Below are positions 15,545 to 61,995 of a DNA stretch of 63,347 nucleotides, piece after piece. Below the pieces are notes generated by a model. The model had not been told where the DNA came from, did no database searches, and was given only the letters and a program-made list of their open reading frames with translations. The first letter of the stretch is position 1. Every line of letters begins with the position of its first letter. This DNA comes from an uncultured Christensenella sp. (GTDB taxonomy: Bacteria > Bacillota > Clostridia > Christensenellales > UBA1242): positions 1-63,347 of the forward strand of contig CAZKOT010000001.1 in the NCBI GenBank assembly GCA_964554475.1. The letters run 5' to 3'. A program made the translations under genes and the position numbers.

Positions 15545-15981
15545 GCCAAAACCCCTTGAAAAATTTAATAAAATTTTATAATAACCAATTTTTTAAATTA
15601 TAAATTATGAATTTCATTAATAGGTTACACAAAAAGAAGATTTTAAGTCAAGTAAATGGAATGAAAGTAGAAAAATATATTGCGAATTTTCTTTTTCACA
15701 AATAAAAATAAAAAAGATATTTTTAAAATATCAAATTGTTTCACAACAAAAAATAAGTTTCATAATGAGGTTTCATATTAATTAATAAAAATTTAAGAAT
15801 ATAATTAAACTAATAGTTTAAAAAAAATTTAAAATTAAATTTAAATTAACAAAAAAAAATCAAAATTTGTTTTGAAGTTTTTTTTTATTATGTTAATATT
15901 ATTTTGTAAATTTAATTGCTTTTGAATAAATGCAATTTTATTGCGAAAAATACGAATAGAAAAATTGTTTTGGAGGAATAT

Positions 15982-16359: not shown

Positions 16360-16371
16360 AAATAATAATAA

Positions 16372-16404
16372 AAACCTCTTTAACATTAAAGAGGTTTTTT
16401 TATT
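16372..16404. terminator. Rho-independent terminator, bidirectional between convergent genes
   Basis: 'aaacctcttta' / acat / 'taaagaggttt' is followed by T7. It starts 13 nt after the 16359 stop. Confidence 0.55.
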
Positions 16405-16446
16405 TTAATAAATTATTTTAGGTAGTCTCAAGGCGTCAATTTAAGA

Positions 16447-16707
16447 TTATAAATAATGGCTTCCAATAATATTATTCATTCTCAAAACCCTTCTAAAATT
16501 TTCCGCTTTTTCTTTGGTTTCAAAGCGTGTTCTTAAGTCTACGTTAAACTCCCCTTTTAAGAAATCACAGTAGTAATCTTTTATATCTGGGTCACTTAAA
16601 TCCCAATTTAAAATGCCATTATGTTCATCAACATCATAAAATTCGTCATATGTCCAAATAGTCGCTCCTTCCTCTAAAAGTTTTTTTAATCTTTCCCTTG
16701 TAATCAT
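16447..16707 (-). CDS. Hypothetical small acidic protein
   Basis: 86 aa. An AAGGAG RBS is present on the minus strand around 16727-16732. No recognisable domain was found. Confidence 0.4.
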   Translation of the reverse strand: MITRERLKKLLEEGATIWTYDEFYDVDEHNGILNWDLSDPDIKDYYCDFLKGEFNVDLRTRFETKEKAENFRRVLRMNNIIGSHYL

Positions 16708-16993
16708 TTTAAAACTCCTTTTTTGTTTAATTGTTTACTATTATCATATTAATATTTTCTATTAACAAGATTCGTATGCCATTTTTAGAATTGAGAATAT
16801 GTAAAGTTAGAAAGTGTGGCAATCTAAAATTTTATGTCGCTTTCCAACGATCTTTCTTCTCGCATTTTATTTCAACATGCTAATTCATTCATCTGCGATT
16901 TGTGTTTAGTATTTTGTAATTTGTTTTGGCATATTTTCTTTTCTATTACAAATTACTATTTATAATATATAATATAAAAACTATTATATTTAT

Positions 16994-17022
16994 TTGCTCA
17001 AAAAAAATGGTTATGTTAAAAT
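16994..17022 (+). promoter_or_regulatory. Candidate sigma-A promoter of the giant surface-protein gene
   Basis: TTGCTC, then 17 nt, then TAAAAT. It sits about 35 nt upstream of an AGAGG RBS and the ATG at 17056. Confidence 0.3.
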
Positions 17023-17055
17023 TATTTTGTCGAATTAAAACAATTTAGAGGTTTT

Positions 17056-20000
17056 ATGAAAAACCATCACAAGAAAACCTTGCTTTCGGTTATGTTTTCA
17101 CTCCTCCTTGCAATTACAGGTGGCTTTTTCTTAAATTTTCAAAAATTTCCATTAATTGCAAATGCTGATGATTTATTTACTCCCTCCTATCTTTCGATTT
17201 TTAAATATACCGAAAGTTCAACTCCTGGGGAATACACCAAAACAGGAAATACAATTTCACGTTTGGACGGAGTTTATTTAAATGAAGATCAAATTGTTAT
17301 TTTAAGACTTGCACACCCAGATGAAGCAGTTTCTTACGGAAACTATAAAATAGAAGTTTATGGAACAGAAATATTTTTAAATAAATCAGCAATCACATGG
17401 AGACCTGAATACACTGTAAATAATTATAACGAAACCCAATATGATTACATAGAAATGCGTTTTAATGTTTGGGCATCACCCTATGGAACAGAGGAACCCG
17501 ATGACGAAGGGAGATATGACATAAGTATTCAATATGTTGAATATTTTAACGGAGTAGCACTTCCATCAAAAACCTTAACTTATTCTTTTTATCTTTTCAA
17601 AACATCAAGTTATTATTTGGGAACCTATCCTGCTGTAACAATTTTAAATTTAGCAAGTTCATCTGACACAATTTTAGCAGGAGCATCTGCTTCTTATGCA
17701 AGAACTTTTCAGTATTATTACAAAAATAATGCACCATCAGAAACACGTCTTTCGCTCCCAGAACTATCATATAATCCCCAAAAATTTGAAATTAGAATTA
17801 CCAAAACAATTTACGGAATTAACACTGTAAGCTATATTAGTTTAAATTCATCTGGCGAAATTGTTCAAACCAATCCAATTGTAAAAATCCGTAAGACTGG
17901 CGAAACAAATGCTATTATTAATTTTAATGACATAGGAAATTACCAAATTGATTATATATTTGTTCACAAATATTTAGACAATGATGTGATTGTAACAGAG
18001 CCACTTACTAACGTAACAAATCAAACAAAATATGACCGAATGAATTTGTTTGGCTTTCAATTATTTCACACTGATATCAATTCTTCTGAAGCACAAAATC
18101 GTTTAGAATTTAAATCATTTGATTCTAACAACATTTTAAGAACTGGCTTTCAAACCGACGTAACTTACACTCATATTTCAGACAATTCTACAAATGCAAG
18201 ATATATTTCTTTTGCTGAAGAAGGACTAAACTCCTATTCAATTGTTCAAACAGATGGAATGAGTGAAACATTTCCATTGTCAACAATCAATTTTAACAAT
18301 GAAATTTTAACTCTTCCCAGCACAAATCAAGCACCAGTCGAACTTGAGTTTAATGGATCAATTTTAACTGATAATTCTTCCTTAATTAATGACAGTTATT
18401 ATTTAAAGCTTGACCACTATGACTCGACAGCAGGTAATACAAGAAATATTTGGAAAATGGAAAGAAATTATCGTGGAACAGCATTTACAGAACCCGGAAC
18501 ATATTTAGTAAAAGTCAGATATCAATCTCAAATATGTATGCAACCCGAGCGTTTTTTTACTCAATGGTTTTTCTTTAAAATTGTCAGTGAAACTCCAAAT
18601 TACACAGTAACAACTCAAAGCGGAACAAATTTACTTTCAAACGCATTCACAAAAGAGTCAGTTATCGTTAACGCCATAGAAAGTGAATATAACAATCCTT
18701 TTAATTCACCAACTCAACTATTTGTTTATTCAAAATCTTTTGAAAGCTCAACTTATTCAAATGAAACTTTAATAAATCCCCAAAGTCCTACCTCTTTTTC
18801 ATCAAAAGCAAATTATAAAGCAGTAATTAAATTCGGAAAAAACTTTTCTAAAAGTAAGAGTAGTTATTTTACCATCGACACAGATGAAATTTCTGGAATT
18901 ACAACAAGAACTGTTTCTTTTATTGATGGCAACTATCAAAAAAACTCGGCAATAAATTTTTTCTCGAATTCAGATGTTGCTGTCGAATGGAATGAAAAAG
19001 CAGCAAGTGGAAATATCACAACAGCTCAATATAAATTTATCCCTATCACAAAAACTACTTCAACTTTTTCTCATGCCCAACTCTTAAATTATTATGAAAA
19101 CCTAAGTCATTATATCCCAGTTAACTATGAAATCACTTACAATGGTGGATTAATACAAGCAGCTCCATACTCAAACACAGTAGGATCCTTAACCGTTCCA
19201 ACCGAAAAAGTAAAATCACAAGAAGGAATATATTTATTTAAAATTTCAGATTTGGCTGGTAATGTTGCCTACCATTCTTTTGTTATTGAGAAATCAGCTC
19301 CACGAGTTCTTCAAAAAACCTTGGGAGAATATCAAACAGATTTTTCAACATTAAATCTAGTAAGCGAAAATACAACTATTCAATGGGGTGAATATAAAGT
19401 AATTAAATTTAGCGGTTTAGATTTAACCGGAATTGATTTAAATGATTGGACAATCCCCGATGGACCTGACCCAGGAACTGAACGTGATGACCCAAATATT
19501 GACCCTTGGTTACTCTTACTTTTTAGAAACAAAGCAACAACTTTAGAGATGTCAAATTCGAATGCCGATTTTAAAAGAATTTTAATTGGCAGTGAAACAA
19601 ATCTTTTCTTATCTTCAAAAATAAAAACCAGCGAAGTAATGGTTCAAATTGGTGAAAAAAGAGTAATTGCGCAAACCGAAAACATTTATGCAGGTGGAGA
19701 ACCCTTGCCCGTTGAACAAATCGGTGGAATTAATTACTGTTTTGGTTATCAAATAAATATTGCAAATTTGGCCGGCACTATTATTTACGAAAACACCTAT
19801 TCATTTTTTGTAAATGATGAGAGTCAAACGAGAACGGGAGAATTCGCAACAACTCATAATATTGAGGTTTCAACAGACATTTCCAAAACTTCTGTTCGTT
19901 TTGCAACAAACGTTCCCTCAAATCCTTATGATGGTTTAAGTCGACATGATTACGAATTAACAGATTTAAGCAATCCAAATAATAGCACAAAATCGCTTTT

Positions 20001-23000
20001 TTACATGCCAATAAGCATAGATTTACTAGAATTACAGTACAAAGTTTCACCAGATCCCGGTTCAATTGAACTTGATGAAATAATCATTTATTTCTATCAA
20101 TATGTTTCAAATTATTTGATTTATACGGGACCGACAGGAATTTTGCAAAATAACATGTATTACACTCTTGATGAGGAAATTGAATATGAAACAGGACAAT
20201 TTGCTACTCTTCAATATTGTTTAACACAAAATATTTTTAGTTATTCAAATTTTCAGGTAGGAACAAGTTTTGTTCTTTCAAAAACTCCAATTGAAATAAT
20301 TGTTTACAGTTTCGAAGAAAACATTAATCTAGGAAATATTGACGGAGACTTATATGTTTGGGATATTAACACAGTTTACGACACCACAAGTGGAAAAACT
20401 TTAACAAACGAAGGAAAATATGAAATTTTCAGAACCTATCGTAATCTTGAAGGTGTTTCAACACTAGTTGCCGGTAACTATGATTTTATGACTAGAAAAA
20501 TTACATTTTATGTTGACAGACAAGATATAATTTCTTCACCAATTGTATTGTACATTGAACCCGATCCAAATCAGCCCATTCAACAAGAAAATTACATTCA
20601 AATAAGCCGTGTTGGTGGACATGGTTATTTGGAAGTATTATATATTTCACCTTCAGGTTCAGGTTTAGAAGAAAATAAATTTAAAGAATTATTTAGAGCA
20701 AAAAATTTAAATCCTGCATCTAAATTAAATATTTTTGAAACAAACAAACTTCCGGTAAAAATTAGTATGCCCTTATTGAAATTTGGTGATTTAATTGGCT
20801 CAAATTTCACTGCGTTCGCAAATTCACTTTTTTATGATTCAGTGCCAAATTCTTATATTAAAACGTTTGAAATTACAATTTCATTAAAGCATTTGCCCAC
20901 AGGAACAATAACAGCACAAACCTACACAATTGAAGCATCAAATCTACCACACATTCCGGGCAGTGGAAAAAGTAGCATTCAATTTGCACCTAATCTTTAC
21001 TTAATCACAACCGGAATAACAAACGGTTATATTGATTTTCCAACTTTTCACACCAGTGGGCAATACGAAATAACGCTTTCTCAAAACAATTCGCTTTTTA
21101 AAGGAAATCATTTAAATTTGATTTTTTATTTAGAAATTAAAAATCAAGCACCCGTTTTTTCTGTTGAAGATTCAAATGGCAATCCCCTTCAACCAAATAT
21201 TGACGAAACACTTTACTACACAAATGATGAACAAATCAAAGTAATATGGACTGATTCAACAAGTCCGTATATGGCAAAAATTAATTTAAATAAAATTCAA
21301 TACTTTGTTGGCACGGGTAGTTTACAAACTGTTAATCCTGTTGATATTACAACAGAAGGCTACAATCACTATTTTTCTTTAAATATTTCAGGACTTACAA
21401 GTGGTGCAAGAGTTACAATTCTTGTTGAATATGAAGGACAAGAATATTATTACTCGCCAGGTTTTTTTAGAAGCAGTAAAGTTGTTGAAATTGACAGAAT
21501 AGCACCAACAGCAAGTATTGAAAAGCTAATAACCAAGGTAAATGCAAGTTCAATTATTAATTCTGCGAACTTACGGCAAGGCCATCAACAGCAAGTAAAA
21601 TACAATAGAACAACAAAAGACCCCACAAGCATATTTAAAAACTTTGCATTTGCAGTTGATGTTCGCGATTTTAATACATTGATTTATTCTAATTTAGAAA
21701 GCGAACTATATTATAAAAATGTTCCAAACAAATACAGTGACATTTCATATAGCGAACTTGACCCTGCCCTTTCACCTCTTTCAACAATTCGTTATAGTGG
21801 AGATTATACAAGAATCTTAGACATCCAAGAAATTTACGACCTTGTTTCTTCTTCTGCATTTATTCCCTCTTATTATGAAATTGTCGAAGTTGATTTTGCA
21901 GGAAATATTACAGTATATTCAATTTATTTAACAGATTTATCAAAATTTGCAATTAATGAAGACTTAAACAATAATGGCATTTTGGATTCCAATGAAGACA
22001 TCAACGAAAACGGATTTTTGGATGTTAACAATCAAGATTTACTTTCATACGTAAGTGATATTAGTGGTGATTTAAAATTAAAACAAGATGAAATTGTAAG
22101 AAAAAATTATAATAGCACAATTTTTTCAAAAGGAAAATTTGAATTAATACGTATAAATGCTTTTGACTATCCATGGTCAATAATTAGTTATAACAATATT
22201 AGTTATTTAAATTCACCAAATCTTGAAGATGGCCAAGTTTACAAATGGGCAACCACAATAACAACGACAACACTTTCAAACGAAATAAATTTGGGAGTGT
22301 CAAGATATAATTATCCTATAATGATAAAAAACGTTCCCTATTTAAACATAAATATTCAAGTTGTAGTTTCAAACGCAATTCTTGATATTTCAGAACCCAG
22401 TGGAATCGCAACCTCTTTAACAGTTACAAAAACTCTCGCAAATGACACCCAATACATTAATTGGACATCAATAACAATTTGGGAATACATCGGTGGGAAT
22501 GTAACAAGAACAGCCGAGTTAAAAAATGGTGTTTCTGAACAAGGTGTTACAATTAATAATATATTAAGTTACAATGTTGTTGGCAACGTAACAACTTTCC
22601 AAATTGCAAATGTAAATGCAAGTGCAGGACCACATTATCGTTTTAGAATTTTTGATAATTTTTCTCAAACTTATACTTTTCATCATCTTTATGGACAAGA
22701 ATTTGTGGAAACAATTTCAAACGAAGACGGTTTGGCAACAATGAAAACAGACTTTTTCTACGAAAATGAGGGCGACGAACCCCAATTATTATACATAAGC
22801 AACAAACCTTTTATTTTCCGTTTTTACAAATCAATAACAACAGTAAAACTAACCGTTATGGCATTCAATTCTGTTTTAGGTTATGGATGGAGTGCAACAA
22901 ATATATACAACATATCAAAAGATTTGATTCCTAACCTCTCATGTTTTGGAATAATTAATAATAGCAATCCTTCATTTATTGAACTAAACTTAAGACCAAA

Positions 23001-25098
23001 TCTTGAGCATTTAGATTATATTCTTAATTTCGCCAATCCAAATTTTACAGGTCCATCATTTTACTATATTATTGAATCTACAACAAATGTTCTTAGTGGT
23101 GTTGTTGGCGAAGATGCAACAGAAATTGAAACATTTAGATTTAATGTTAATATGCTACTTCCAAAAATTGAATTACGAGGAAAATATAGGCAAGATTTAA
23201 ACGGACTGTTTATCAATAACAATATGACTTCTGACCCCGTAACAGTTGAATTTGCTGACACTTCCATCTTTACATATCCAGTTGAAATTTGGATTTCAAA
23301 AAATGGAGAACCACTTCAAAAAATAACTTCTGGACAAACTTTTACAGATGTTGGCGTTTACACAATTGTTAGAAAATGGACTAATGCAATGGATGTTTTT
23401 GAGGAACCCCAATTATCATTCACAATTTCAGATGCCGCAAGTCAGTTTTACAATGTTGCTGTAAAGGTTACTGGGGAAGAAAGATATGCTGTTATTTCTA
23501 CGACAGGTAATCCATACGTTTTGGTAGATAGTCAAAGCAGTGGTTTAACGAGTATTTATTCTCATTATATTGTAAATACCCTTGATTTTGTTATTAATTT
23601 AAACACTTCGCAAAATGTTGAAATTTTAGAAAATACCTACGAAAATCAGACACTAAAATTTACCGATACAAAAAACGGTGTGAACACTTTTATTCGTACA
23701 ATTTCAAATTACAACTCATCACCAACCTCATACGTTAATTATTTTGAAACAAAAATTGCAATAACCTACATTCCTCCTTCAAGTAAATTGTTAAACAATT
23801 TCACTTATACCGACACACAAGTTGATCAAAGGCCTTTTACTTACAGCGAATTAATTTATTCGATTAACAAAAGTGCACAAAGTGCCGACAGTTTAATAAT
23901 TTCATGGAATAATTATTATAGAATTCCCGAAAATAAAGTCATTGTTGAAATTAGATATGGTCTTGAAAATCAATTAATTTCTTTAGCGGGAATGACAACA
24001 AGAAATGAGGTTAATTCAATTATTTTAAATCGTTCGGGTTATTACTTGTTCACCTTTAGAGATTTAGCGGGAAATATTCATAAATTTGATTACAGTGCTT
24101 CGGTTTTAAACAGTTCAACTTCGTATGAATTTGTATATATAAAAAATGTGGTTTTTAATGTTAATAATGCATCTCCAATTCCTTATGCAATCTACAATTC
24201 CGATGTTGTCATTAACTTACCATCCGATTCTCTTGCCTACTATGATGTCAATGCTCAACCGTCCATAAAAGTATTAAAAAATGGCGAAATTTACAAAGAC
24301 TATACTTCTTCAACTGCTGAAAGAAAATACACGTTTACTGAGCCAGGACTATACCAAGTAAGTTTTTCAGCAAAACGACTAGGAAATGAAATTAGAGAAG
24401 AGACATATAGTTTTCAAATAATTAGAGCAAATGAACTTTGCTGGACATTTAATATTGACCAGTACGAAAATTATTACATTAAACAAATAATCAAAAATGG
24501 GGTTGACATAACAAGGGCACTTTCAAATAGTTCAATTGGAGCAATTATTTATGTTCAAACAGTTTTACCAAACGAAAGTGTTGTTAATCTTCCTTATTTA
24601 AAAGAACTTTGGGTTTCATTATATGATGAAAAAACGGGTGCAGGCAATTACTCAATTACAATAGGAACAAATAATGATTTGGGACAAGAATTTTCATTTT
24701 CTTTTAAAATTAATTCTGCCACAGCGCCAATTTCAGTTTCACTTGCGGAAGGAGAATCTACAACAGACACAATAACTGTGAAATTTAATGCAAAAAATCT
24801 TTTTGACAATGTTGGAGATTGTATTGTTCGTATTTATCCAAATAAAGACATTATAATAAACTCTGAATATTTTGAACAACCTGACTACATTGAGAATTAT
24901 GAAGTTAATATTACAAAAATCGGTGATAGTTATGTGCAAATTTTAACTCCAAGTGGACGACTTTTGTACAGTTATAGAGTGATACGTAATCAACCTTTAA
25001 ACTCCATTGCAATTATTCTAATTACCGTTGCATCATTAGTTGGAATTGGATTAACAATTATGTTTATTCTGCTTCGAAGGAGAATGAAAATTAGATAA
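17056..25098 (+). CDS. Giant cell-surface protein (2,680 aa) with a signal peptide, C-terminal TM anchor and tandem EF-hand-like calcium-binding loops
   Basis: Uninterrupted ORF. The N-terminal signal is 'LLSVMFSLLLAITGGFFLNF...IANADD'. The C-terminal anchor is 'IAIILITVASLVGIGLTIMFILLRRRMK'. 'DLNNNGILDSNEDINENGFLDVNNQD' at 21961-22038 holds the calcium loops. The sequence is T/S/N-rich, typical of an extracellular protein. Confidence 0.7.
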   Translation: MKNHHKKTLLSVMFSLLLAITGGFFLNFQKFPLIANADDLFTPSYLSIFKYTESSTPGEYTKTGNTISRLDGVYLNEDQIVILRLAHPDEAVSYGNYKIEVYGTEIFLNKSAITWRPEYTVNNYNETQYDYIEMRFNVWASPYGTEEPDDEGRYDISIQYVEYFNGVALPSKTLTYSFYLFKTSSYYLGTYPAVTILNLASSSDTILAGASASYARTFQYYYKNNAPSETRLSLPELSYNPQKFEIRITKTIYGINTVSYISLNSSGEIVQTNPIVKIRKTGETNAIINFNDIGNYQIDYIFVHKYLDNDVIVTEPLTNVTNQTKYDRMNLFGFQLFHTDINSSEAQNRLEFKSFDSNNILRTGFQTDVTYTHISDNSTNARYISFAEEGLNSYSIVQTDGMSETFPLSTINFNNEILTLPSTNQAPVELEFNGSILTDNSSLINDSYYLKLDHYDSTAGNTRNIWKMERNYRGTAFTEPGTYLVKVRYQSQICMQPERFFTQWFFFKIVSETPNYTVTTQSGTNLLSNAFTKESVIVNAIESEYNNPFNSPTQLFVYSKSFESSTYSNETLINPQSPTSFSSKANYKAVIKFGKNFSKSKSSYFTIDTDEISGITTRTVSFIDGNYQKNSAINFFSNSDVAVEWNEKAASGNITTAQYKFIPITKTTSTFSHAQLLNYYENLSHYIPVNYEITYNGGLIQAAPYSNTVGSLTVPTEKVKSQEGIYLFKISDLAGNVAYHSFVIEKSAPRVLQKTLGEYQTDFSTLNLVSENTTIQWGEYKVIKFSGLDLTGIDLNDWTIPDGPDPGTERDDPNIDPWLLLLFRNKATTLEMSNSNADFKRILIGSETNLFLSSKIKTSEVMVQIGEKRVIAQTENIYAGGEPLPVEQIGGINYCFGYQINIANLAGTIIYENTYSFFVNDESQTRTGEFATTHNIEVSTDISKTSVRFATNVPSNPYDGLSRHDYELTDLSNPNNSTKSLFYMPISIDLLELQYKVSPDPGSIELDEIIIYFYQYVSNYLIYTGPTGILQNNMYYTLDEEIEYETGQFATLQYCLTQNIFSYSNFQVGTSFVLSKTPIEIIVYSFEENINLGNIDGDLYVWDINTVYDTTSGKTLTNEGKYEIFRTYRNLEGVSTLVAGNYDFMTRKITFYVDRQDIISSPIVLYIEPDPNQPIQQENYIQISRVGGHGYLEVLYISPSGSGLEENKFKELFRAKNLNPASKLNIFETNKLPVKISMPLLKFGDLIGSNFTAFANSLFYDSVPNSYIKTFEITISLKHLPTGTITAQTYTIEASNLPHIPGSGKSSIQFAPNLYLITTGITNGYIDFPTFHTSGQYEITLSQNNSLFKGNHLNLIFYLEIKNQAPVFSVEDSNGNPLQPNIDETLYYTNDEQIKVIWTDSTSPYMAKINLNKIQYFVGTGSLQTVNPVDITTEGYNHYFSLNISGLTSGARVTILVEYEGQEYYYSPGFFRSSKVVEIDRIAPTASIEKLITKVNASSIINSANLRQGHQQQVKYNRTTKDPTSIFKNFAFAVDVRDFNTLIYSNLESELYYKNVPNKYSDISYSELDPALSPLSTIRYSGDYTRILDIQEIYDLVSSSAFIPSYYEIVEVDFAGNITVYSIYLTDLSKFAINEDLNNNGILDSNEDINENGFLDVNNQDLLSYVSDISGDLKLKQDEIVRKNYNSTIFSKGKFELIRINAFDYPWSIISYNNISYLNSPNLEDGQVYKWATTITTTTLSNEINLGVSRYNYPIMIKNVPYLNINIQVVVSNAILDISEPSGIATSLTVTKTLANDTQYINWTSITIWEYIGGNVTRTAELKNGVSEQGVTINNILSYNVVGNVTTFQIANVNASAGPHYRFRIFDNFSQTYTFHHLYGQEFVETISNEDGLATMKTDFFYENEGDEPQLLYISNKPFIFRFYKSITTVKLTVMAFNSVLGYGWSATNIYNISKDLIPNLSCFGIINNSNPSFIELNLRPNLEHLDYILNFANPNFTGPSFYYIIESTTNVLSGVVGEDATEIETFRFNVNMLLPKIELRGKYRQDLNGLFINNNMTSDPVTVEFADTSIFTYPVEIWISKNGEPLQKITSGQTFTDVGVYTIVRKWTNAMDVFEEPQLSFTISDAASQFYNVAVKVTGEERYAVISTTGNPYVLVDSQSSGLTSIYSHYIVNTLDFVINLNTSQNVEILENTYENQTLKFTDTKNGVNTFIRTISNYNSSPTSYVNYFETKIAITYIPPSSKLLNNFTYTDTQVDQRPFTYSELIYSINKSAQSADSLIISWNNYYRIPENKVIVEIRYGLENQLISLAGMTTRNEVNSIILNRSGYYLFTFRDLAGNIHKFDYSASVLNSSTSYEFVYIKNVVFNVNNASPIPYAIYNSDVVINLPSDSLAYYDVNAQPSIKVLKNGEIYKDYTSSTAERKYTFTEPGLYQVSFSAKRLGNEIREETYSFQIIRANELCWTFNIDQYENYYIKQIIKNGVDITRALSNSSIGAIIYVQTVLPNESVVNLPYLKELWVSLYDEKTGAGNYSITIGTNNDLGQEFSFSFKINSATAPISVSLAEGESTTDTITVKFNAKNLFDNVGDCIVRIYPNKDIIINSEYFEQPDYIENYEVNITKIGDSYVQILTPSGRLLYSYRVIRNQPLNSIAIILITVASLVGIGLTIMFILLRRRMKIR

Positions 25099-25125
25099 AA
25101 AAACGCACTTTTTTGTGCGTTTTTT
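25099..25125. terminator. Rho-independent terminator, shared by convergent genes
   Basis: 'aaaacgcac' / tttttt / 'gtgcgtttt' plus a T-run, immediately after the 25098 stop. Confidence 0.55.
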
Positions 25126-25138
25126 AATAATAAAAGAA

Positions 25139-26074
25139 TCAAGCGAAGTCAAAAGAATTATTTTTATCAACATCATTTTTATTATAATGATATTTATGTA
25201 TATATTCATTATAAAGTCTTAACAAATTTGGATTAGGAAAATCTGAAAGATTTTTTTGTTCAGATTTAAAAACAATTTTTTTCTCTTTTGATCCTATGTT
25301 TTTTTTATCTTGTTTTGTTGTTGATACCATTAATTTAACATCATTTCTATCTGATCCATTTTTGCTAAAAGCAAATGCGTATTCTGTAATTATATTATTT
25401 TGGTCTTTTTTTGATTTTTGTTGGAAAATTATAATTTGACCTTTATCATTAGGATTATTTTTAAGCTTTTTTTCAAAAAATTTAATCGAATTCTCATCAA
25501 TCGGGTTACATTCAAATTCTTTTAATAATTTTTCTATTTTTGCAAAATCATTTAATGAATTTGCTTTTTGCCTATGAAATTCAATGTATTTGTTTTCAAT
25601 ATCGGAAGCTATTGAAGAATATAAACCTTTCCATGATGCTTTAGCAAGTATTTTATCTTCATAAACTACGTAACCATATTCAGTTGGATGATACAACGAA
25701 TCGTTGATTTCTCTGTCGTCCTGATCAAAAACAAAAAGATTGTCTGTTCTAATCGGATCTTTAATTTTATGAAAAACATATCCTGACAAAGGAATAACAA
25801 ATATTGGATACTTATAGACTTTTACATGTCTGCTGTCAGCTGTTGTATAAAGAAATTCCTTACGCAGTTTGACTTCAAGAACGCATTTTGGAACATTGTG
25901 AAATTTATCTTCAAGTAAAATAATTTTAACGTCGTCGACATCTTTATCTTGTAATCTAGATTTACATTCATTTACACCACTTTGGTGTACGTATTGGATA
26001 ACATCATCAATTCTTTTAATTCTTAATCCCATAGTAAAATTTCCTTTTATAACAATTATAATTTTGAAAGTCAA
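25139..26074 (-). CDS. Hypothetical protein. The likely true start is the internal Met 'MGLRIKR' near 26032.
   Basis: 311-aa track ORF. An AAGGA RBS precedes the second ATG. No recognisable domain was found. It is co-oriented with the Rho-like gene just upstream. Confidence 0.4.
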   Translation of the reverse strand: MTFKIIIVIKGNFTMGLRIKRIDDVIQYVHQSGVNECKSRLQDKDVDDVKIILLEDKFHNVPKCVLEVKLRKEFLYTTADSRHVKVYKYPIFVIPLSGYVFHKIKDPIRTDNLFVFDQDDREINDSLYHPTEYGYVVYEDKILAKASWKGLYSSIASDIENKYIEFHRQKANSLNDFAKIEKLLKEFECNPIDENSIKFFEKKLKNNPNDKGQIIIFQQKSKKDQNNIITEYAFAFSKNGSDRNDVKLMVSTTKQDKKNIGSKEKKIVFKSEQKNLSDFPNPNLLRLYNEYIHKYHYNKNDVDKNNSFDFA

Positions 26075-26127: not shown

Positions 26128-27246
26128 TTATTTTTTAAAAATTTTATCTGCGTTTTTAATAAGGTCATTTTTATAAAATGAATTTTCTTTTTCATGACTT
26201 AAACAACTTGCAAAAGTGGTAATACTCGCTCCAGTTTGCAAAACTTTTCCCGTATTAAAAATTCTTTTTGTAATTCTAACTGCTTCAACAGTATTATTTG
26301 TTCTTTCATTTTCAATTGCAAAAAACATTTCAAGTCCATTTAATATTCCAAAAATATCAAAAAGAACCAAAATAACTTTATTTCCCTCAAGTAAAAGTGA
26401 ATTCACATGGTTTATTGCATCAATAGTTGCATCATACAGTCTAATAGGATGATCCTCTAAAAGTGAGTAAATAAATTCACCCTCAAAATCTTTTTCAATT
26501 TGTAATTTTGTGTAAACTGAAATATTAGGAGCTAAGGCAACAACTTTAAACAATTTAAAAAGGGGCTTAATGGTTTCTTTCATTTTTGAAATTGAATCTT
26601 TGAATGTTTCGCCGATGAAAAGAACATTTTCCCCTTCATTCACGCCTTCCAAATTTTTTAACGGAACTTCTTTAAGAACAACCTGGTCATTTTTTTTCAA
26701 ATCTCTATTTTTTAAAACTTGATGATTATTTATACTTTCAATTTCAACCAAAACATAATAGCTTGTTAATTGATTTGCAACGCCTTCAATTTTATCTCCC
26801 TCAATAAGAGAATGTTCATTAATAAAACTATCTGGAACAGAAACCAAAATTTCATTACTTAAGTTTACTTTAAAGTAATAATTATTTGATTGAGTTTTTC
26901 TCAGAAAACCTTTAACTTCAACTCTTTCTGGATTTGCCACCTTACTTTGTGCAAATTGCAAACTTGCAGAAACTTTTTGAGCAATTTTTTTGTTTAGAAC
27001 CACTTCAGTTAATTCTTTTGGAACAAATATATCTAAAACACTTTCTATTTTTTTAATTGATTTTGGAGGACGACCTTTAACCGAAATTTTTTGAGGTATC
27101 ATTTCACCGCAAGAAATTTTTAATATTAATTCTTCTAATTCTTTTCTTTTTTTTGTTGTAGCCGAAGAAATGCCCAACCTACGAGCAAGTTCACGTAACT
27201 CATAAACTCCAAATTCTTTCAATTTTTCTTCTTTGTAACTCTTCAT
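26128..27246 (-). CDS. Rho-like protein with Rho_N and Rho CSD RNA-binding domains but degenerate ATPase motifs (no Walker A)
   Basis: 372 aa. 'YELRELARRLGISSATTKKRKELEELI' is a Rho_N helix-hairpin. 'VEVKGFLRKTQSNNYYFKVNLSNEILVSVPDSFINEHSLIEGDKIEGV...YYVLVEIESIN' aligns with E. coli Rho 'GFGFLR...[23 protein letters not shown]...YFALLKVNEVN'. The P-loop position reads 'LFIGETFKDSIS', not GxxxxGKT. 'VILVLFDIFGILNG' aligns with Rho 'VIILLDSITRLARAYN'. Confidence 0.5.
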   Translation of the reverse strand: MKSYKEEKLKEFGVYELRELARRLGISSATTKKRKELEELILKISCGEMIPQKISVKGRPPKSIKKIESVLDIFVPKELTEVVLNKKIAQKVSASLQFAQSKVANPERVEVKGFLRKTQSNNYYFKVNLSNEILVSVPDSFINEHSLIEGDKIEGVANQLTSYYVLVEIESINNHQVLKNRDLKKNDQVVLKEVPLKNLEGVNEGENVLFIGETFKDSISKMKETIKPLFKLFKVVALAPNISVYTKLQIEKDFEGEFIYSLLEDHPIRLYDATIDAINHVNSLLLEGNKVILVLFDIFGILNGLEMFFAIENERTNNTVEAVRITKRIFNTGKVLQTGASITTFASCLSHEKENSFYKNDLIKNADKIFKK

Positions 27247-27536
27247 GTCTCCTCCAAAATTATTTTAACACTTTTACTAAAATTTCCCAAATTATTCCCT
27301 ATTTTTTGATAAATTTAGAAAAGTTTTTTCTTGTTATTTTAAATTATAATTAGGTTCAAGCAATAAGTCAATAGAGAATGCATAATTCACAAAAAATTAT
27401 TGTTTTATTCATTTTTTACAAAGTGTTATTGTCTTTGCAAGTTTTGTTCATAAAAATGTGCTCCACTCAATATTAAATATTTCCAATTTTAGAAAAAATT
27501 TTCATTACTTGAAATAAATTTGCTTTTTAAATTAAA

Positions 27537-27573
27537 AATTGTGCTCTTAAAAACTAAAGCACAATTTTTTAAG
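27537..27573. terminator. Symmetric rho-independent terminator downstream of the giant lipoprotein gene
   Basis: 'aaaattgtgct' / 12-nt loop / 'agcacaatttt' carries an A-run on one side and a T-run on the other. It lies 60 nt past the 27630 stop on the minus strand. Confidence 0.5.
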
Positions 27574-27629: not shown

Positions 27630-30600
27630 TTATGGATAGAGTATGTAAGTACTTTCCCAAATTAAAACAGGATAGGTTCCGCCACTATTCCAAACATTTG
27701 AATAAAGTGCATTAAGTTCATTGAAAAGATTCACCGTTGAAATATCAATTGAATTAAAATTTCCAGGTGGATTATTTATAGGTGAAACACCTATAACAGA
27801 AATGTAATAATTATAAACTCCTGACGAAAGAGATGTTGCCCCCGATAATCCAACTAGCAGTCCCAAATATCGAGTTGTCAATCCTCCTGGACTTCCAAGA
27901 ATTGAATTACTTTCCGAAATTAAGGTTGTTGTGAACGAATTGTTAATTTTTCCACCATTTTGATTTGCTATATATCCAGAAATACCACCAATATATGCAT
28001 TACGAGCTGATGTTGCAGTATTTAAATATTCAACAATTAAACTACTAGCGATATTATAACAATTTCTTATTATACCTTCATTTCTTCCGGTAATTGCTCC
28101 AACATAAGTGTTTGAAGCAGTTCCAAGAGTAATTTTTGCCCTTAAATTACCTTTATTATAACATTCAACAATTTTTCCAATTAAGTTTTCTGAAGAAGAT
28201 GTTCCACCAAAATTAAATGCAGCAACTCCTCCAATATTTACTGTTTTTGCTCTTCCTGTAATATTTGCTAGATTTCCGCTTTTTCGAATTGTTCCTGTAT
28301 AGGTTGTTTCACCCTCAGTTATTTGATTGTTTGCGTAAGCAATTCCGCCGATTGTCAATTCTGAACTTGTTATATCAGTATCATTAAAATCCAAAGTTGC
28401 GAGGTTCACACAAAGTTCAATAATTCCATAATTGTTGCATGCAATTCCACCATAGTAGTAATATATTCCAGCAGTAGTTGCTGAAGAGAATGAAACATTC
28501 TTGATTTGACAGTATGAAATTAAACCAAAATTTTCATTTACTAGTGATGAAAACCTGAGCGAATTAACATCAGTAGAGGAAATATTTCCGTGAGAAATAT
28601 TGGCAATTATATTAAGATTTTTAATAATACCATTAGCATTTAATCTAACAAACAAACCAATATTTGTTGCTTTAATTGATGTTGTGTTTGTAAAACTCCA
28701 ACTTATAGTCTTATTATCTCCGTCATAAATTCCACCAAATGTCGAAATCATTACATCAACAAGAGTTAAGTTTGCAGTTTGTTTAAAATTAAACACTTTT
28801 TCTATTTCTTCAACTATTCCATCACCGTCATTATCTTTTATTAAATATGTTGGCTTTGTCGGTCTGTAAATCATGTTTGCAAACTGCACTGAAGTTGCAA
28901 TGTTATAAGGATTTGATTCTGTTCCTTCCCCACTTTCAAACAAATTAAAATTAATCAAAGTAAATTCGTGATCAACTCCCTCAATTGTCAAAACAAAACT
29001 AGAATGATTGATTAGTCCATTTTCACTTACAGAATTAAAGAAATATTTAAACTCAGAAGCAATGCTTCCATCTGGTGTGATTGCACAAACCTTAATTCTA
29101 TGAAGACCAATCAATTCGGGCATAAATTCCATTACTGTTGAGGTATATGTTCTTGTTGATAAAACATTAAATGTTTCAGTGCTCTCGTTCCATGAAACAA
29201 TTTCATCAACTATTCTAAAAGTCCCAGAACCAGAATGTGTCCATGCAATTTTTCTTGAACTTGAGAAATAGGAAAAATCTTCAATTGCAACTGGTGGAGT
29301 AACATCATATCTCACACTGTAATCTGACATTAAAACATTATTTGAATCTGTAATTGGTATTACACAAATTTTGAAATATAAGGTCCCCGCACTAATTAAT
29401 GATTGAATACCCGGAGTAATTGGATCAGTATCAAACATACTTTCAATTTGACCATAATAATAAGAAGGAATTGAAGATTCATATTGTCCAAGTATTGCAA
29501 TTTCTGCATATGTTTCACCATCATAACTATACTTAAACAAGTAATCATATCCAGTAACCCCGACTACATTACCCGTAAATCTCCATTTAATAATGAATCC
29601 ACCATCAGGAGATGGATCAGACAAGTATTCAACACTATCGATTTCAGTAAGTTTTTTGAAATTACCACCCAAAGTTTCATTTGAATTAATATGTTCTTCC
29701 CCACCTAACGCTTTGATTTTTACCTCATAATCAACGTTAACTCCTAAACTTTCAAATTTAATAATATCATCCCCTGTTAATTGTGAAGGATTAAATTCAT
29801 TTGTTAAAGTTGTAAAAGTAACAACTTGAGGCAATCTTGTGAATGTTAACAAATATGAAGTACTTTGAGTGACCTCATTCCATCTAATAACTCCATTATC
29901 AATTCTAACATTAGAAACTTGTTGCAGTTTTGTAAATTCGGCATGTGAAGCTTCTAAAGTTTTTCCAATTAAATATTTGTAAATTTTTCCATCAGTGTGC
30001 TCAAACTCACCATTTGAGTATGGTTGAATAGAAACATCATAATCACCCGCAAGATAAGCTTGAAACATTTCAATAAACTCGGGCGGAGGAGATGGATTTT
30101 CAACGCTTAACCATTGACCAATGAAATCATAAAGAACGAACGTATCTCCCAACCAAGCGAAAGTGGAATATTCTTCGTAATGGAAAGGATTGTAAATATG
30201 AGTGCCGAAAAACGAAATTTTATATCCTGTAACGTTGCTTCCACCCAAATCAGTAACATTTCTCCAAACCAGATTTCCCTCATGAACTCCAATACTTGCT
30301 ACGGAATTAAGCATAACTGCATTAATACCATCCATATAACTCGAAATTGCATAAATAGGAGATCCTCCAAAAGAACTGGTTGTTGTTCCAATGGTTCGGA
30401 AATTGTAATTGTTATAACCTGGAGTAATAGATTCATAAATAGAGGTAAGACCCACTTCACCATATGGTAAATCAAACACTAATAACTGTGTTGAAGTTTG
30501 AACATAAACAAGATAACCACTGTTGTTTAAGACATTCGCCCATTCAAATCTTCCATGAACAATGTCAACGGATGGCGAATCAAGTTTACTTATTTCTCCT

Positions 30601-33600
30601 AAATCTGTTACTTTTCCTGATATTACATTTGTTCCGTTACCAATAGCTTGAATAGATAATTCATAGATAATTATATTTGTTTCACCATCTCTTGTTTCAA
30701 GCGGAAGAAAATCCCAACTGCTACCTGTGTGCAAAGCTTCATAAGTATCAATACCTGGTGATTGAGGCACTGCAATAATATTATAACCTGTTGCAAGTCC
30801 ACTAGAACTATATCCAAGAACTCCTCCATCCATGTTTGCATTAACGGTTGGTAATACAGTTATGTTTACTGCGGTTGATGGGTAACCATGAATTGTCATA
30901 TTACTATCACCACTGACAAAAACATATAATCTGTATTGTCCTGCAGGTAAAATGTCTGCATTTACTAGGTCTACCAAATTTACACTTCTATTATCATTGT
31001 CTCTTGTTGCAATTTGAAAACGATTTCCATTTGCAATATTTTCTGCAAGGACAGTGTAGTCAAATTTATCAGTTGTTGAATAATGATATCCTGCTTTAAT
31101 AGGATAGGTTGACTCGCTCCATGACAATACATAATTATCAATACTAACCGAAGTCGGCGCTGAAGGAATGTAAACGTTAATTCCCAAGTTATATCTTGAA
31201 TTGAGCCAATTATAATCATCTCCATTTTGCTTTACAGAAATTGTATAAAATCCCGAAGGAACATTTGTAAGTTCATTTGTAAACCAATTCATAACTGGCC
31301 AACCAAATTCAAAATCTTCACTTAATCCCAAATAACCTCTAATAACTTCCCAATCTTCAGGACTTGCATCCACCATATTAGGTCTAAAGAAATTTGCAGC
31401 AGGAACAGTGTAATAATTAAACCCCGTTCCCCCCTCATTTTGTAATCTTAATATAATAGTATTATTGTCAAGTTCATCTGGCCAAGGATTGTAATTAAAA
31501 GGTAAATTCGATGGAATAAAACGATAAGGGGTTGTCGAACTGAATTCATAATCCCAATTAGCATCACTCCATAAGAGTGTTCCATTTTGCACAATTAAAT
31601 TTTGAGGAGCGGACAATTTAACTACGGGTGCTAAAAATCCAATATTATACGACTCAAAACAGCCCAAACCACTCGGTGCAATTTTTAAGGAATCATTTGT
31701 GCAAACTGCACGCACACCCAAAAAGTAATACAAGTTTTCATTTAATTCTCCAAAATAATCTGGCAATTCCCAACTCCACGAAGCATTTTGCATTGAATCA
31801 AGAAGTGTCGGGGGAGTTGAAATAAATGTAAGATATGTGATTTCATCTTCATATCCCCATTCACCTTCGCCAATTTCGATTAATTGTGGTTGTCTATAAT
31901 AAATATAATAACCGTTTGCTCCACTTACATTATCCCAATAAAGATAACCATTTTCAACATAAACCGGAACTTCTGAAAGTTTGGTAAAATTATAATTAAT
32001 TGAATATGCTGAAGAAATGAAATAATAACCGCCAACTTCAGGTTCGCTTTTTCCGTCAATACGAACTTTAAATGTATAAGTTCCACTTTGATAGTATAAA
32101 TCATTCAAACTATCATTATATTCATCACTATTCATTTCCAAATAACTATCTAAAAAATTTAAATGATTGTAGTTATAAATATACGCAAACCCACCTTCAT
32201 AATGTAAACAGCTCATTGTAATGCTATAAGTTCTGTCTGCCACTGCTTGCCACGAAACTGTAAATTGATTTTTTGAACTTTCATTCCAATCAAAAGTAAA
32301 ATCATTAGATGAATCATTTGGATTTGGAGTCAATCTTATATTTAGAGTGCTTGAAGATAAATCTGAATTTAATAAATTACTTGATGCAGAAGAAGTTGCC
32401 ATAATTGCAAAAGTATAATCCACATCATTTTGAAGTTGTTGTGCTCCGCTATAAAAAGCACTACTTAATCCAATAAAATATCCCGAATCAAGCCGTGATT
32501 CGTCAAGGTTATAATTACGATTAAGAAGGGTTTCTTTTGCAATAAAATTAGTTGTCCAATCATCATCTATGAAAACTTTAAATTCACCATTTAAAATTGA
32601 AATTTCGGTTGGTGCAATAAGTTTATGTGCTGTGTAATTTAAATCTTGATAAGAGTAACTTCCGCCAGGCAGAGAAGTATAACTCATCCTATAGCGTGAA
32701 TCCAAAATAATGTTTTCACTTTTAATGATTCCTGCTTCCAAATTACCACTACATTTCAAATTAGCAACAATATCTCCCGAAATACCTGTAAGAAGATTGT
32801 TTTTTGTTGTTGGTGAAGCAATTTGAATATAATTTAATTCGGTTTGAAGAACTCTTAAAAGATATCCTTGGCAATCAACATCATCAGTACTATTCCATGT
32901 TAAAACACCATTCAAAGCATAAATATTATTAACTGGTGCTAGTCTTTTACCCGAAATTTGAGTAATTTTTGAATCTAAAAATCCATTCATAGAAACTTTT
33001 ATTGTGATTGTAAAAATTCCTGTAGGAATGTAAAAATTTAAATCTTCTGTTATAGGGTAAATTAGTTTTCCAGCAACTGGAGACAATTCATTATTTTGGT
33101 AACTTGTTCCTGCAACGGAAAGAGTGTAAATAGCATTTATTGGATTACTTTCAATGTCGGCCTGCAATGAAATACTTTGTTCATCATTGTTTGCTTTTAA
33201 AAATCCGTCAAAAGTAAGAGCATTTAATTTGGTGCGAGTTGGTGCAGAAGTTGCCGAATTAATTGCATTTAAAGTACCATTATAAAAAGCAAACACTTCA
33301 AAGATATATGTCCCTCCAACTACTTCAACTCCTTGATATGTCCAAATGTCAGGAAATTCCCATACCTGATTTGAGTTTAAAATAACTGGGACTTCTGTAA
33401 CATCTAAAATAACAGTATCAATTCCATCTGTATGTTTAACCGTTAAAGAAAATTGAGCATTACTGTTAACAATGCTTTCGTCAATGGTTAAATATGTGCC
33501 AAAAATATCAATTGAAGGTGCATCTAATTTTTGTTTTGCAATAACACTACTTGCTCCTGAAAAATAATACCTTCCATTAATTTGAGTGTCTCTATCCCCA

Positions 33601-61971: not shown

Positions 61972-61995
61972 CAAAATTTAGGGGATTAAGAATAA

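What the first reader, a model, noticed from the sequence alone, without database searches (positions are those of the whole stretch)
26128..27246. ATPase-dead Rho paralogue between the two giant surface-protein genes
The N-terminal 150 aa carry an unmistakable Rho_N motif and the Rho primary RNA-binding cold-shock domain, aligning to E. coli Rho through 'GFLR...VSVP..I....L..GD.I.G...YYVLVEIESIN'. The RecA-like region keeps Rho-like spacing, but the P-loop is replaced by 'LFIGETFKDS' and the Walker B region by 'VVALAPNISVY'. Such a protein could bind nascent RNA at Rho sites without translocating. It might act as a Rho antagonist or antiterminator, or as an RNA-binding regulator. It sits with an unknown 297-311 aa gene directly between two long genes of 8 and 10.7 kb whose transcripts would be prime Rho targets.
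Basis: partly seen in the sequence, partly recalled or inferred. Interest (0 to 1): 0.65.

Follow-up and report, generated by a model that had tools for sequence, protein, structure and literature searches.

The report
Motor-less relic of termination factor Rho
This gene encodes a shortened copy of the bacterial transcription terminator Rho that keeps Rho's nucleic-acid-binding front end but has lost its ATP-driven motor; it belongs to a large, selectively maintained and so far undescribed family in uncultured gut Clostridia that probably descends from the original rho gene itself.

Summary
The ORF at 26128..27246 (-) is real and encodes 372 aa. It is a true Rho homologue. A profile of the family hits solved Rho structures at E=1.5e-14, and the AlphaFold model's 50 best PDB matches are all Rho (E=5e-17). 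The Walker A loop, the catalytic Glu, the Q/R loops and the C-terminal ~75 aa with the Arg finger are all gone.

The protein is not a one-off. At least 131 clusters at 50% identity share this build, all from MAGs of uncultured Clostridia and annotated "hypothetical". dN/dS is 0.06-0.2 in both halves.

A graded series links it to canonical Clostridial Rho, which already carries the same Rho_N + "GRPPK" module. Forms with and without a P-loop sit at the same locus (spoIIR-sleB-ypeB-X). Other members lie beside fba, prs or rpiB, which are neighbours of canonical rho. It therefore looks like a degenerate orthologue rather than an extra paralogue, but whether a second rho exists could not be tested.

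It has its own promoter and terminators. The upstream giant gene is clade-specific. Many family members have no giant neighbour. The Rho-antagonist idea is unsupported. Most likely it is an ATP-independent nucleic-acid-binding protein.

The parts
26128..27246 (-). Rho-derived, P-loop-less protein ('X'), 372 aa
   Evidence: ORF. Family profile vs PDB Rho, E=1.5e-14. Foldseek top 50 matches are all Rho. dN/dS 0.06-0.2 in relatives.
27118..27222 (-). Rho_N helix-extended-helix domain (aa 9-43). It is the most conserved part of the family: R18 and R22 are invariant in 96 sequences.
   Evidence: Pfam Rho_N E=1.4e-3. NCBIfam Rho alignment from aa 6. Invariant columns. 65% mean identity against ~40% for the rest.
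27061..27078 (-). 'KGRPPK' AT-hook-like motif (aa 57-62) in a basic, low-confidence linker (aa 48-104). G58 and R59 are invariant.
   Evidence: invariance. (pLDDT 48-58). (net charge +6). The same motif occurs in canonical Clostridial Rho.
26719..26934 (-). Rho-type OB (cold-shock-like) domain, aa 105-176. The aromatic residues equivalent to Rho F64 (Y124) and Y110 (Y163/Y164) are kept. The Y80 equivalent is not kept in this clade.
   Evidence: Pfam Rho_RNA_bind E=1.5e-3. Profile alignments. Column counts. Alignment.
26131..26631 (-). Degenerate RecA-like domain, aa 206-372, ending where Rho's C-terminal subdomain would begin
26593..26622 (-). 'LFIGETFKDS', the position of Walker A (Rho 'LIVAPPKAGKT'). 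There is no G-K-T/S.
26512..26544 (-). 'VVALAPNISVY', the position of Rho 'LMVLLIDERPEEV'. Catalytic Glu211 and Arg212 are lost.
26350..26376 (-). 'VILVLFDIF', the true Walker B position (Rho 'VIILLDSIT'). Asp297 is retained.
27343..27371 (-). Sigma-70-type promoter-like site TTGACT-17-TATAAT (11/12), ~97 nt upstream of the ATG. GGAGGAG lies before the start codon.
   Evidence: This is a consensus match only, and the number of such sites in the region is not above shuffles.
27534..27569 (-). Hairpin plus U-run downstream of the 3,559-aa gene (terminator-like), separating it from X
   Evidence: -15.5 kcal/mol, z=-3.3..
25098..25125 (-). A/U-flanked hairpin between the convergent genes (bidirectional terminator-like)
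   Evidence: -12.9 kcal/mol, z=-5.8.
25139..26074 (-). Orphan ORF, 311 aa from TTG, more likely 297 aa from ATG at 26032. It is not part of the conserved unit.
   Evidence: No Pfam, NCBIfam, PADLOC or PHROGs hit. No tblastn hit in any locus.
27630..38309 (-). 3,559-aa surface protein gene upstream of X on the same strand. It is a neighbour only in the closest clade.
17056..25098 (+). 2,680-aa surface protein gene convergent with X. It is an old neighbour, homologous in loci whose X is only ~25-30% identical.

Best explanation
The gene encodes a degenerate descendant of the Clostridial-type Rho factor, the type that carries Rho_N, an 'RGRPPK' motif and an insertion before the OB domain.

It keeps the three N-terminal nucleic-acid-binding elements:
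- the Rho_N helix-extended-helix domain;
- a basic linker with an AT-hook-like GRPPK;
- the OB fold, with part of the primary RNA-binding pocket.

It also keeps the core of the RecA fold. It has lost everything needed to burn ATP and pull RNA: Walker A, the catalytic Glu, the Q and R loops, the Arg finger and the C-terminal subdomain.

It therefore cannot terminate transcription as Rho does. Most likely it acts as an ATP-independent binder of single-stranded RNA (possibly also of AT-rich DNA), with the dead RecA domain serving as a scaffold. It is expressed from its own promoter.

It is most likely what has become of the lineage's own rho gene (a positional orthologue), not an extra copy. Its position between two giant genes is inherited gene order rather than a functional unit.

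Shown: homology, motif losses, family size, purifying selection, shared loci.
Inferred: nucleic-acid binding, orthology, absence of a functional link to the giant genes.
For: - Homology and fold.
- Motif mapping and losses.
- Family size and motifs: 131 representatives at E<1e-30 and 760 at E<1e-10. Of the 187 sequences held, 4 contain an [AG]xxxxGK[ST] string; 2 of these lie in the OB domain and only P0167 has it at the Walker A position.
- Annotation: every family member that carries a source name is a 'hypothetical protein' (JGI: transcription termination factor) from Clostridia MAGs.
- Purifying selection: dN/dS is 0.06-0.2 in both the N-terminal and C-terminal halves.
- The N-terminus is the most conserved and most basic part.
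- Graded series from canonical Rho. It runs through P0145 ('SPKTDTAL'), long forms without Walker A, and the P0167 subfamily (Walker A present, 'DKRPED'), to 161 short forms.
- Canonical gut Clostridial Rho already has Rho_N + 'RRGRPPK'.
- Same locus, sipL-spoIIR-sleB-ypeB-X, for P0167 (Walker A present; Pfam ATP-synt_ab 63.7 bits), P0199 and P0194.
- Neighbours match those of canonical rho:
  - X neighbours: fba-hpf-X in 9 loci (8 directly adjacent), prs-X, LMW phosphatase + rpiB upstream of X.
  - Canonical rho neighbours: fba, glpX, rpmE and prs, fba, the atp operon.
- Own transcription signals.
- No relatives in phages, plasmids or viral contigs.
Against: - Whether a canonical rho exists elsewhere in these genomes was not tested. 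Only 10-kb flanks could be read.
- Nucleic-acid binding is inferred from conserved residues and charge. In this clade the Y80-equivalent aromatic residue of the pyrimidine pocket is not conserved.
- The oligomeric state is unknown.
- The neighbour-joining tree behind the 'series' is crude and could partly reflect long-branch ordering.
- The convergent 2,600-aa gene stays next to X across 25-56% identity, which leaves room for a functional link.
- In many loci X is followed by a membrane-protein gene and a DivIVA-like gene. This hints at a role outside transcription.
Confidence: 0.6

Rival explanations
1. First reader's model. X is an extra, ATPase-dead paralogue that competes with an active Rho. 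It would do so either by occupying rut-like RNA or by poisoning mixed rings, and would thereby protect the very long transcripts of the flanking giant genes from Rho termination.
For: - The OB domain and part of the pyrimidine pocket are retained.
- The giant-X-giant arrangement recurs in L023, L027 and L029.
- The convergent giant gene is an old neighbour.
Against: - The positional evidence favours an orthologue.
- No canonical rho was found in any fetched sequence.
- X has its own promoter and terminators.
- At least 17 loci have no giant neighbour.
- The C-terminal subdomain and Arg finger, which form much of the Rho ring interface, are missing.
Confidence: 0.12
2. X has become a DNA-binding, nucleoid- or division-associated protein. 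The helix-extended-helix (SAP/LEM-like) domain plus the AT-hook-like GRPPK would bind AT-rich duplex DNA in a ~30% GC genome. X would work with the membrane protein and the DivIVA-domain protein encoded downstream in many relatives.
For: - The HeH domain and GRPPK are the only (nearly) invariant parts across 96 sequences.
- The N-terminus is basic.
- The order X, 165-199-aa membrane protein, DivIVA-like gene is conserved with two different upstream contexts.
- ftsK lies nearby in some loci.
Against: - The same HeH + GRPPK module is present in canonical, presumably RNA-directed Clostridial Rho.
- The window's own clade lacks the membrane/DivIVA partners near X.
- The DivIVA match is weak (E=0.003).
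Confidence: 0.2
3. X is a decaying remnant of rho with no function.
For: All catalytic motifs are lost and the C-terminus is truncated.
Against: - dN/dS is 0.06-0.2 in both halves.
- Length is constant at ~365-400 aa over at least 131 clusters at 50% identity.
- Reading frames are intact in all loci.
- Start signals are well formed.
Confidence: 0.03
4. X is still an NTPase or motor that uses a non-canonical nucleotide site.
For: The Walker B Asp is retained. The RecA core is predicted with high confidence.
Against: - There is no phosphate-binding loop, no catalytic Glu and no Arg finger.
- The RNA-contacting Q/R loops are remodelled.
- No conserved Gly-rich or Lys/Ser/Thr motif replaces them in 96 sequences.
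Confidence: 0.03

Closest known systems
Canonical Rho of gut Clostridia with an N-terminal insertion ('Type 2' Rho in PMC11347177), e.g. P0236, P0275, P0278
   Same: - The same Rho_N sequence signature ('GIFQLRDLAR..G..SPT.K..ELI').
- The same '[KR]GRPPK' motif directly after it.
- The same OB fold and RecA core.
- Shared neighbours fba and prs.
   Different: The canonical proteins have PPKAGKT, IDERPEEV, LLDS/LMDS, the Q/R loops, a full C-terminus of 75-99 aa and a long disordered insertion. X has none of these and is ~170 aa shorter.
E. coli, T. thermophilus and M. tuberculosis Rho (solved structures 1pv4, 8hsj, 7oqh)
   Same: Best sequence-profile and structural matches. RMSD is 3.6 A over ~299 columns to 7oqh.
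   Different: Identity is 13-18%. X has no ATPase motifs, no Arg finger and no C-terminal subdomain. Ring formation is unknown.
Second 'Group B / Type 4' Rho copies of Actinomycetota and the PVC group (PMC11347177)
   Same: They are divergent Rho-family genes beyond the standard factor.
   Different: The pattern is the opposite. Those copies lack the N-terminal domain but keep the RNA-binding and ATPase domains. X keeps the N-terminus and loses the ATPase.
Rho_N-only proteins: plant RHON1 and cyanobacterial DUF4912 'Rho-like' proteins (PMC13613805)
   Same: They reuse the Rho_N domain without a motor.
   Different: They have neither the Rho OB domain nor a RecA-like domain. X retains both folds.
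Rho inhibitors Psu, Rof/YaeO (structures 8pex, 8w8d seen among the Rho hits)
   Different: They are unrelated folds that bind Rho. X is itself a Rho homologue. No phage or plasmid relatives were found.

Membership tests
Transcription termination factor Rho (functional, TIGR00767/NF006886 sense) | Whole-protein score above the curated equivalog cut-off | tested here: not met
   27.5 bits against a cut-off of 315, and 22 bits against 509. Only model positions 3-134 are matched.
Transcription termination factor Rho (functional) | Rho_N helix bundle at the N-terminus | tested here: met
   - Pfam Rho_N E=1.4e-3, below the gathering score for the single sequence.
- The domain is recognised in relatives P0020-P0024.
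- Helices at aa 2-45 in the model.
- The signature is shared with canonical Clostridial Rho.
Transcription termination factor Rho (functional) | OB/cold-shock primary RNA-binding domain with aromatic pocket residues (F64, Y80, Y110, E108, R66) | tested here: inconclusive
   The fold is present. The F64 and Y110 equivalents are aromatic, and R66 is K/R. The Y80 equivalent is aromatic in 106 of 165 family members but not in the window's clade. E108 is replaced in the window protein.
Transcription termination factor Rho (functional) | Walker A P-loop (PPKAGKT) | tested here: not met
   The position reads 'GETFKDS'. Only 1 of the 187 sequences held (P0167) has a GK[ST] motif at the Walker A position (4 contain an [AG]xxxxGK[ST] string anywhere). 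Ten more Walker-A-positive forms appear among P0167's own relatives.
Transcription termination factor Rho (functional) | Catalytic Glu211 / Arg212 (IDERPEE) | tested here: not met
   The position reads 'APNISVY'.
Transcription termination factor Rho (functional) | Walker B Asp265 | tested here: met
   'VLFD', with D297 conserved in at least 90% of close relatives.
Transcription termination factor Rho (functional) | Secondary RNA site (Q-loop K283/T286, R-loop K326) | tested here: not met
   These columns are gaps or variable residues. The region is predicted as helices.
Transcription termination factor Rho (functional) | Arg finger R366 and C-terminal subdomain | tested here: not met
   The protein ends at about Rho residue 345. 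The C-terminal region is 0-1 aa long in the window's clade.
Transcription termination factor Rho (functional) | Hexameric ring; RNA-dependent ATPase and helicase activity | not testable with these tools
   Needs a multimer prediction or biochemistry.
Rho superfamily by descent (homologue of Rho) | Significant profile and structural similarity across the OB and RecA domains in Rho order | tested here: met
   E=1.5e-14. Foldseek E=4.7e-17 with Rho as all 50 best matches. E. coli Rho finds the intermediates P0199, P0167 and P0194 by tblastn at 1e-29 to 6e-15.
   None was found in the 63-kb window or in ~0.6 Mb of flanks. Positional evidence favours orthology.

The most novel reading that the evidence does not exclude
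A whole radiation of uncultured, low-GC gut Clostridia has turned its only rho gene into a motor-less protein and kept it under strong selection. If so, lineages scored as 'Rho-negative' still use Rho's N-terminal crown (HeH, AT-hook-like motif, OB) for a new, ATP-independent job. That job could be RNA chaperoning, termination or antitermination without translocation, or nucleoid or division-linked nucleic-acid binding.
Probability: 0.4. Interest if true: 0.75.

Novelty: new variant of a known kind. Interest (0 to 1): 0.6.

Why it matters
Rho is regarded as a conserved ATP-driven motor. Surveys classify genomes as Rho-positive or Rho-negative by the presence of the RNA-binding and ATPase domains.

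A large family under purifying selection that keeps Rho's front end and the RecA scaffold, but none of the motor chemistry, is a natural separation-of-function experiment. It asks what the Rho N-terminal domain does on its own.

It would also change how termination is inferred in many uncultured gut Clostridia. The graded series, from intact forms through forms with partial motif loss to short forms, offers a rare view of an essential-type enzyme becoming a pseudo-enzyme.

Finally, it flags a conserved 'GRPPK' motif in canonical Clostridial Rho. That motif is not mentioned in the passages of the two Rho papers I read.

Tried and rejected
- Single-sequence search against PDB sequences found nothing relevant. 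The family profile was needed.
- An exact look-up of the window protein's contig failed. Cluster look-ups gave no organism names or accessions.
- I searched all fetched DNA for a canonical rho, rpmE, prfA and tdk next to X. None was present.
- I tried to detect co-occurrence by matching 'longest contig' lengths between X clusters and the canonical Rho clusters listed. There were no coincidences, but only 120 of 1,944 hits were shown, so this is uninformative.
- The supplement of PMC13613805, which might list Rho-negative Clostridia, is not held.
- The afdb50 fold library was unavailable.
- A phage, plasmid or defence origin is rejected. There were no PADLOC or PHROGs hits, and no tblastn hits in plasmids, phages or IMG/VR.
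- The 311-aa ORF as a partner of X is rejected, because it has no homologue in any other locus.
- Co-transcription with the upstream giant gene is judged unlikely: a hairpin terminator and then a promoter lie between them.
- Rfam and tRNA scans of the window were empty.
- The A2 alignment was too diverse for pattern scans.
Full report
**Observation.** The ORF at 26128..27246 on the minus strand is present and encodes 372 aa.

- Alone, it matches Pfam Rho_N (aa 9-43, E=1.4e-3) and Rho_RNA_bind (aa 113-176, E=1.5e-3), both below the gathering scores.
- It matches the NCBIfam Rho equivalogs only over their first ~134 positions: E=1.2e-6 and 27.5 bits, against a cut-off of 315.
- A single-sequence search of PDB sequences found nothing relevant.
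- The protein database returned 25 relatives of 364-401 aa. A profile of 23 of them (A1) hits solved Rho chains at E=1.5e-14 (T. thermophilus) and ~2e-12 (E. coli). The alignment runs from the OB domain to about Rho residue 331.
- An AlphaFold2 model built on that alignment has mean pLDDT 81 and pTM 0.71. Only the linker at aa ~50-100 is poorly defined.
- Foldseek against the PDB returns Rho as all 50 best matches: E=4.7e-17, TM 0.5-0.6, and RMSD 3.6 A over ~299 columns to M. tuberculosis Rho.

Homology to Rho across both domains is therefore secure.

**Motif mapping.** The HMMER and MAFFT alignments give the following correspondences.

| Rho element | Rho sequence | Window protein | State |
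|---|---|---|---|
| Walker A | LIVAPPKAGKT | LFIGETFKDS (aa 209-218) | lost |
| Catalytic Glu211 / Arg212 strand | LMVLLIDERPEEV | VVALAPNISVY (aa 235-245) | lost |
| Walker B | VIILLDSIT | VILVLFDIF (aa 291-299) | Asp kept (D297, at least 90% of close relatives) |

- The Q-loop and R-loop positions are gaps or variable residues, and the region is predicted as helices.
- The protein stops at about Rho residue 345. The C-terminal subdomain with Arg finger R366 is therefore missing.
- In the OB domain the equivalents of F64 and Y110 remain aromatic and R66 is Lys/Arg. The Y80 equivalent is not aromatic in this clade.

**The family.**

- An exhaustive profile search of 1.84 billion cluster representatives found 131 proteins at E<1e-30, 760 at E<1e-10 and 1,939 at E<1e-3. 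Most are 350-400 aa.
- Among the 187 sequences then held, four contain an [AG]xxxxGK[ST] string. Two of those lie in the OB domain. Only P0167 has the motif at the Walker A position in the alignment.
- Genome hits are all MAGs labelled uncultured Clostridia, Firmicutes, Christensenellales, Catabacter or (one) Lachnospiraceae. Family members that carry a source name are 'hypothetical protein [Clostridia bacterium]', and JGI calls one a 'transcription termination factor'.
- Across 96 divergent members the only invariant residues besides the initiator Met are R18 and R22 in the Rho_N helix and G58 and R59 of a 'GRPPK' motif. Nearly invariant positions include the rest of Rho_N, P60/K62, G113, G150/D151 and G205.
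- The Rho_N segment is the best conserved part, at 65% mean identity to the window protein against 31-45% elsewhere.
- The N-terminal 104 residues carry net charge +10, whereas the OB and RecA-like parts are neutral to acidic.
- Nei-Gojobori dN/dS between relatives of 60-98% identity is 0.06-0.27, mostly below 0.2, and is similar in the two halves.

This is a maintained protein, not a decaying gene.

**Origin.**

- Aligning the family with canonical Rho shows a graded series:
  - canonical Rho;
  - P0145 (Walker A 'SPKTDTAL', other motifs intact);
  - long forms of 445-493 aa that keep 'I[DN]ERPED' and a C-terminus but lack Walker A and the Walker B Asp (P0102, P0199, P0118);
  - the P0167 subfamily (Walker A 'GSGKT' in 10 members, but Lys in place of Glu211);
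  - 161 short forms, including the window protein.
- The neighbour-joining tree behind this ordering is crude.
- E. coli Rho finds the intermediates directly by tblastn at 1e-29 to 6e-15.
- P0167 passes Pfam's cut-offs for ATP-synt_ab and Rho_RNA_bind.
- Canonical gut Clostridial Rho proteins (P0236, P0275 'transcription termination factor Rho [Firmicutes bacterium]', P0278, P0254) already carry the same Rho_N signature followed by 'RRGRPPK', before a long insertion. This holds for 37 of 93 canonical hits.
- The family therefore derives from this Clostridial 'Type 2' Rho.

**Orthologue or paralogue?** Whole genomes could not be searched, so this rests on position.

- P0167 (P-loop present), P0199 and P0194 (P-loop absent) all lie directly after sipL-spoIIR-sleB-ypeB.
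- P0145 lies directly after prs. A canonical 548-aa gut Rho lies three genes after prs, beside fba and near the atp operon.
- Tepidimicrobium rho lies in fba-tal-glpX-glpX-rho-rpmE.
- In 9 loci of the family the order is fba-hpf-X (in one of them three ORFs lie between hpf and X). In L028 a low-molecular-weight phosphatase gene and rpiB lie upstream of X.
- From my own knowledge of the B. subtilis map, atp, rpiB (ywlF), ywlE, spoIIR, rpmE, rho, glpX and fbaA all belong to one old syntenic block.
- No canonical rho, rpmE or prfA occurs in the window or in ~0.6 Mb of fetched flanks.

I conclude, at perhaps 60-65% confidence, that X is the lineage's own rho gone motor-less. PMC13613805 notes that Clostridia include both Rho-positive and Rho-negative species when Rho is defined by its RNA-binding and ATPase domains. 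X would be scored negative under that definition.

**Surroundings.** On the minus strand the order is pgk, tpiA, the 3,559-aa gene, X, then the 311-aa ORF. These converge on the 2,680-aa gene, which follows a T4SS pilin gene and is flanked by a VirD4-type coupling protein gene.

- Between the 3,559-aa gene and X lie three elements:
  - a 14-bp hairpin with a U-run at 27569..27534 (-15.5 kcal/mol, z=-3.3);
  - a TTGACT-17-TATAAT site at 27371..27343;
  - a GGAGG before the ATG.
- A strong A/U-flanked hairpin at 25098..25125 closes the unit. X thus looks like its own transcription unit.
- The upstream giant gene accompanies X only in the closest relatives (L001, L002, L023, L024, L027, L029).
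- The convergent giant gene accompanies X more widely. This includes L030-L032, where X is only ~25-30% identical and the giant gene is 27-28% identical.
- In at least 17 other loci there is no giant gene.
  - In most of these X is followed co-directionally by a 165-199-aa membrane protein gene and a DivIVA-domain gene.
  - In the others X lies between pfkA and a lipoprotein gene, near spo0A.
- The 311-aa ORF has no homologue in any locus and no family hit.

**Mechanism.** Without a P-loop, catalytic Glu, RNA-contacting loops or Arg finger, the protein cannot be an RNA translocase. What selection preserves is the Rho_N helix pair, the GRPPK motif in a basic flexible linker, the OB fold with part of its aromatic pocket, and the structural core of the RecA fold.

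- The most economical reading is an ATP-independent nucleic-acid-binding protein that uses Rho's primary-site architecture, with the dead RecA domain as a scaffold.
- RNA is the default ligand, because canonical Clostridial Rho carries the same module.
- AT-rich DNA binding is a serious alternative. It is suggested by the HeH plus AT-hook-like combination, which I know as a DNA-binding pairing, and by the DivIVA-like neighbours.
It also needs either ring mixing, which is doubtful without the C-terminal subdomain, or competition for RNA.

**Novelty.** The 2024 survey of Rho diversity covered 2,730 RefSeq genomes (PMC11347177). [quoted passage not shown] It does not describe the inverse pattern, with the N-terminus kept and the ATPase dead. 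PMC13613805 describes only Rho_N-only proteins in cyanobacteria. No dedicated Pfam or NCBIfam model exists. I therefore rate this as a new variant of a known kind, found only in uncultured Clostridia so far. No relatives occur in phage, plasmid or viral-contig collections.

**Limits.**
- No whole-genome check for a second rho was possible.
- There is no multimer model.
- The tree is crude.
- Promoter calls in AT-rich DNA are weak evidence.
- All functional statements are inferences.

Noticed in passing
window 8597..25098; also L023, L028, L032: A T4SS-like set is kept next to the Rho-like gene in lineages whose Rho-like proteins are only 25-50% identical. It comprises a VirD4-type coupling protein (13571..15544, -), a T4SS pilin (15916..16359, +), a 2,680-aa surface protein with signal peptide and C-terminal anchor (17056..25098, +), and two paralogous 794/756-aa proteins with no family hit (8597..10981 and 11118..13388, -). 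It looks like an old chromosomal feature rather than a recent conjugative element.
   Followed up: partly
window 25139..26074 (-): Orphan ORF (311 aa from TTG, more likely 297 aa from ATG at 26032 with an AAGGAA upstream). It has no Pfam, NCBIfam, PADLOC or PHROGs hit and no homologue in 36 related loci. It appears to be a lineage-specific insertion between the Rho-like gene and the convergent giant gene.
   Followed up: partly
L004, L007, L008, L010-L012, L014, L017, L005, L006, L020, L025 (downstream of the match): In most of the family the Rho-like gene is followed on the same strand by a 165-199-aa polytopic membrane protein gene and a DivIVA-domain protein gene. This holds with two different upstream contexts (fba-hpf, or hslVU...Zn-peptidase), which suggests a conserved three-gene unit.
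   Followed up: partly
P0236, P0275, P0278, P0254 (canonical Rho, aa ~55-70); L034: Canonical gut Clostridial Rho proteins carry an AT-hook-like 'RRGRPPK' motif immediately after Rho_N, ahead of their long disordered insertion. It is present in 37 of 93 canonical hits. The Rho survey passages I read do not mention this motif.
   Followed up: partly
P0167, P0205-P0217 (L033 4485-5891): A subfamily of ~460-aa Rho-like proteins keeps Walker A (GSGKT) and Walker B (DD) but has Lys in place of the catalytic Glu211 ('DKRPED'). These may bind nucleotide without hydrolysing it, an intermediate state in the loss of the motor.
   Followed up: no
L004, L007, L014, L020, L025 upstream of the match: A TATAAT box lies only 6-17 nt before the presumed start codon of the Rho-like gene, and no Shine-Dalgarno sequence is visible. 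The mRNA may be leaderless, or my start-codon choice may be wrong.
   Followed up: no
window 53161..54666, 61261..62589; L030, L032, L033: Sporulation and germination genes (sipL, spoIIR, sleB, ypeB, spo0A, the gerA operon) and the rlmB-sigH region recur around the Rho-like gene in relatives. The window has sipL and rlmB-sigH ~26-35 kb away. These reduced, low-GC uncultured Clostridia therefore appear to be spore formers.
   Followed up: no
window 3646..4887 (-), 56616..60338 (+): Further surface-protein genes are present: a BspA-type leucine-rich-repeat protein and a 1,240-aa protein with a weak Ig-like surface domain. The window is unusually rich in large surface proteins.
   Followed up: no
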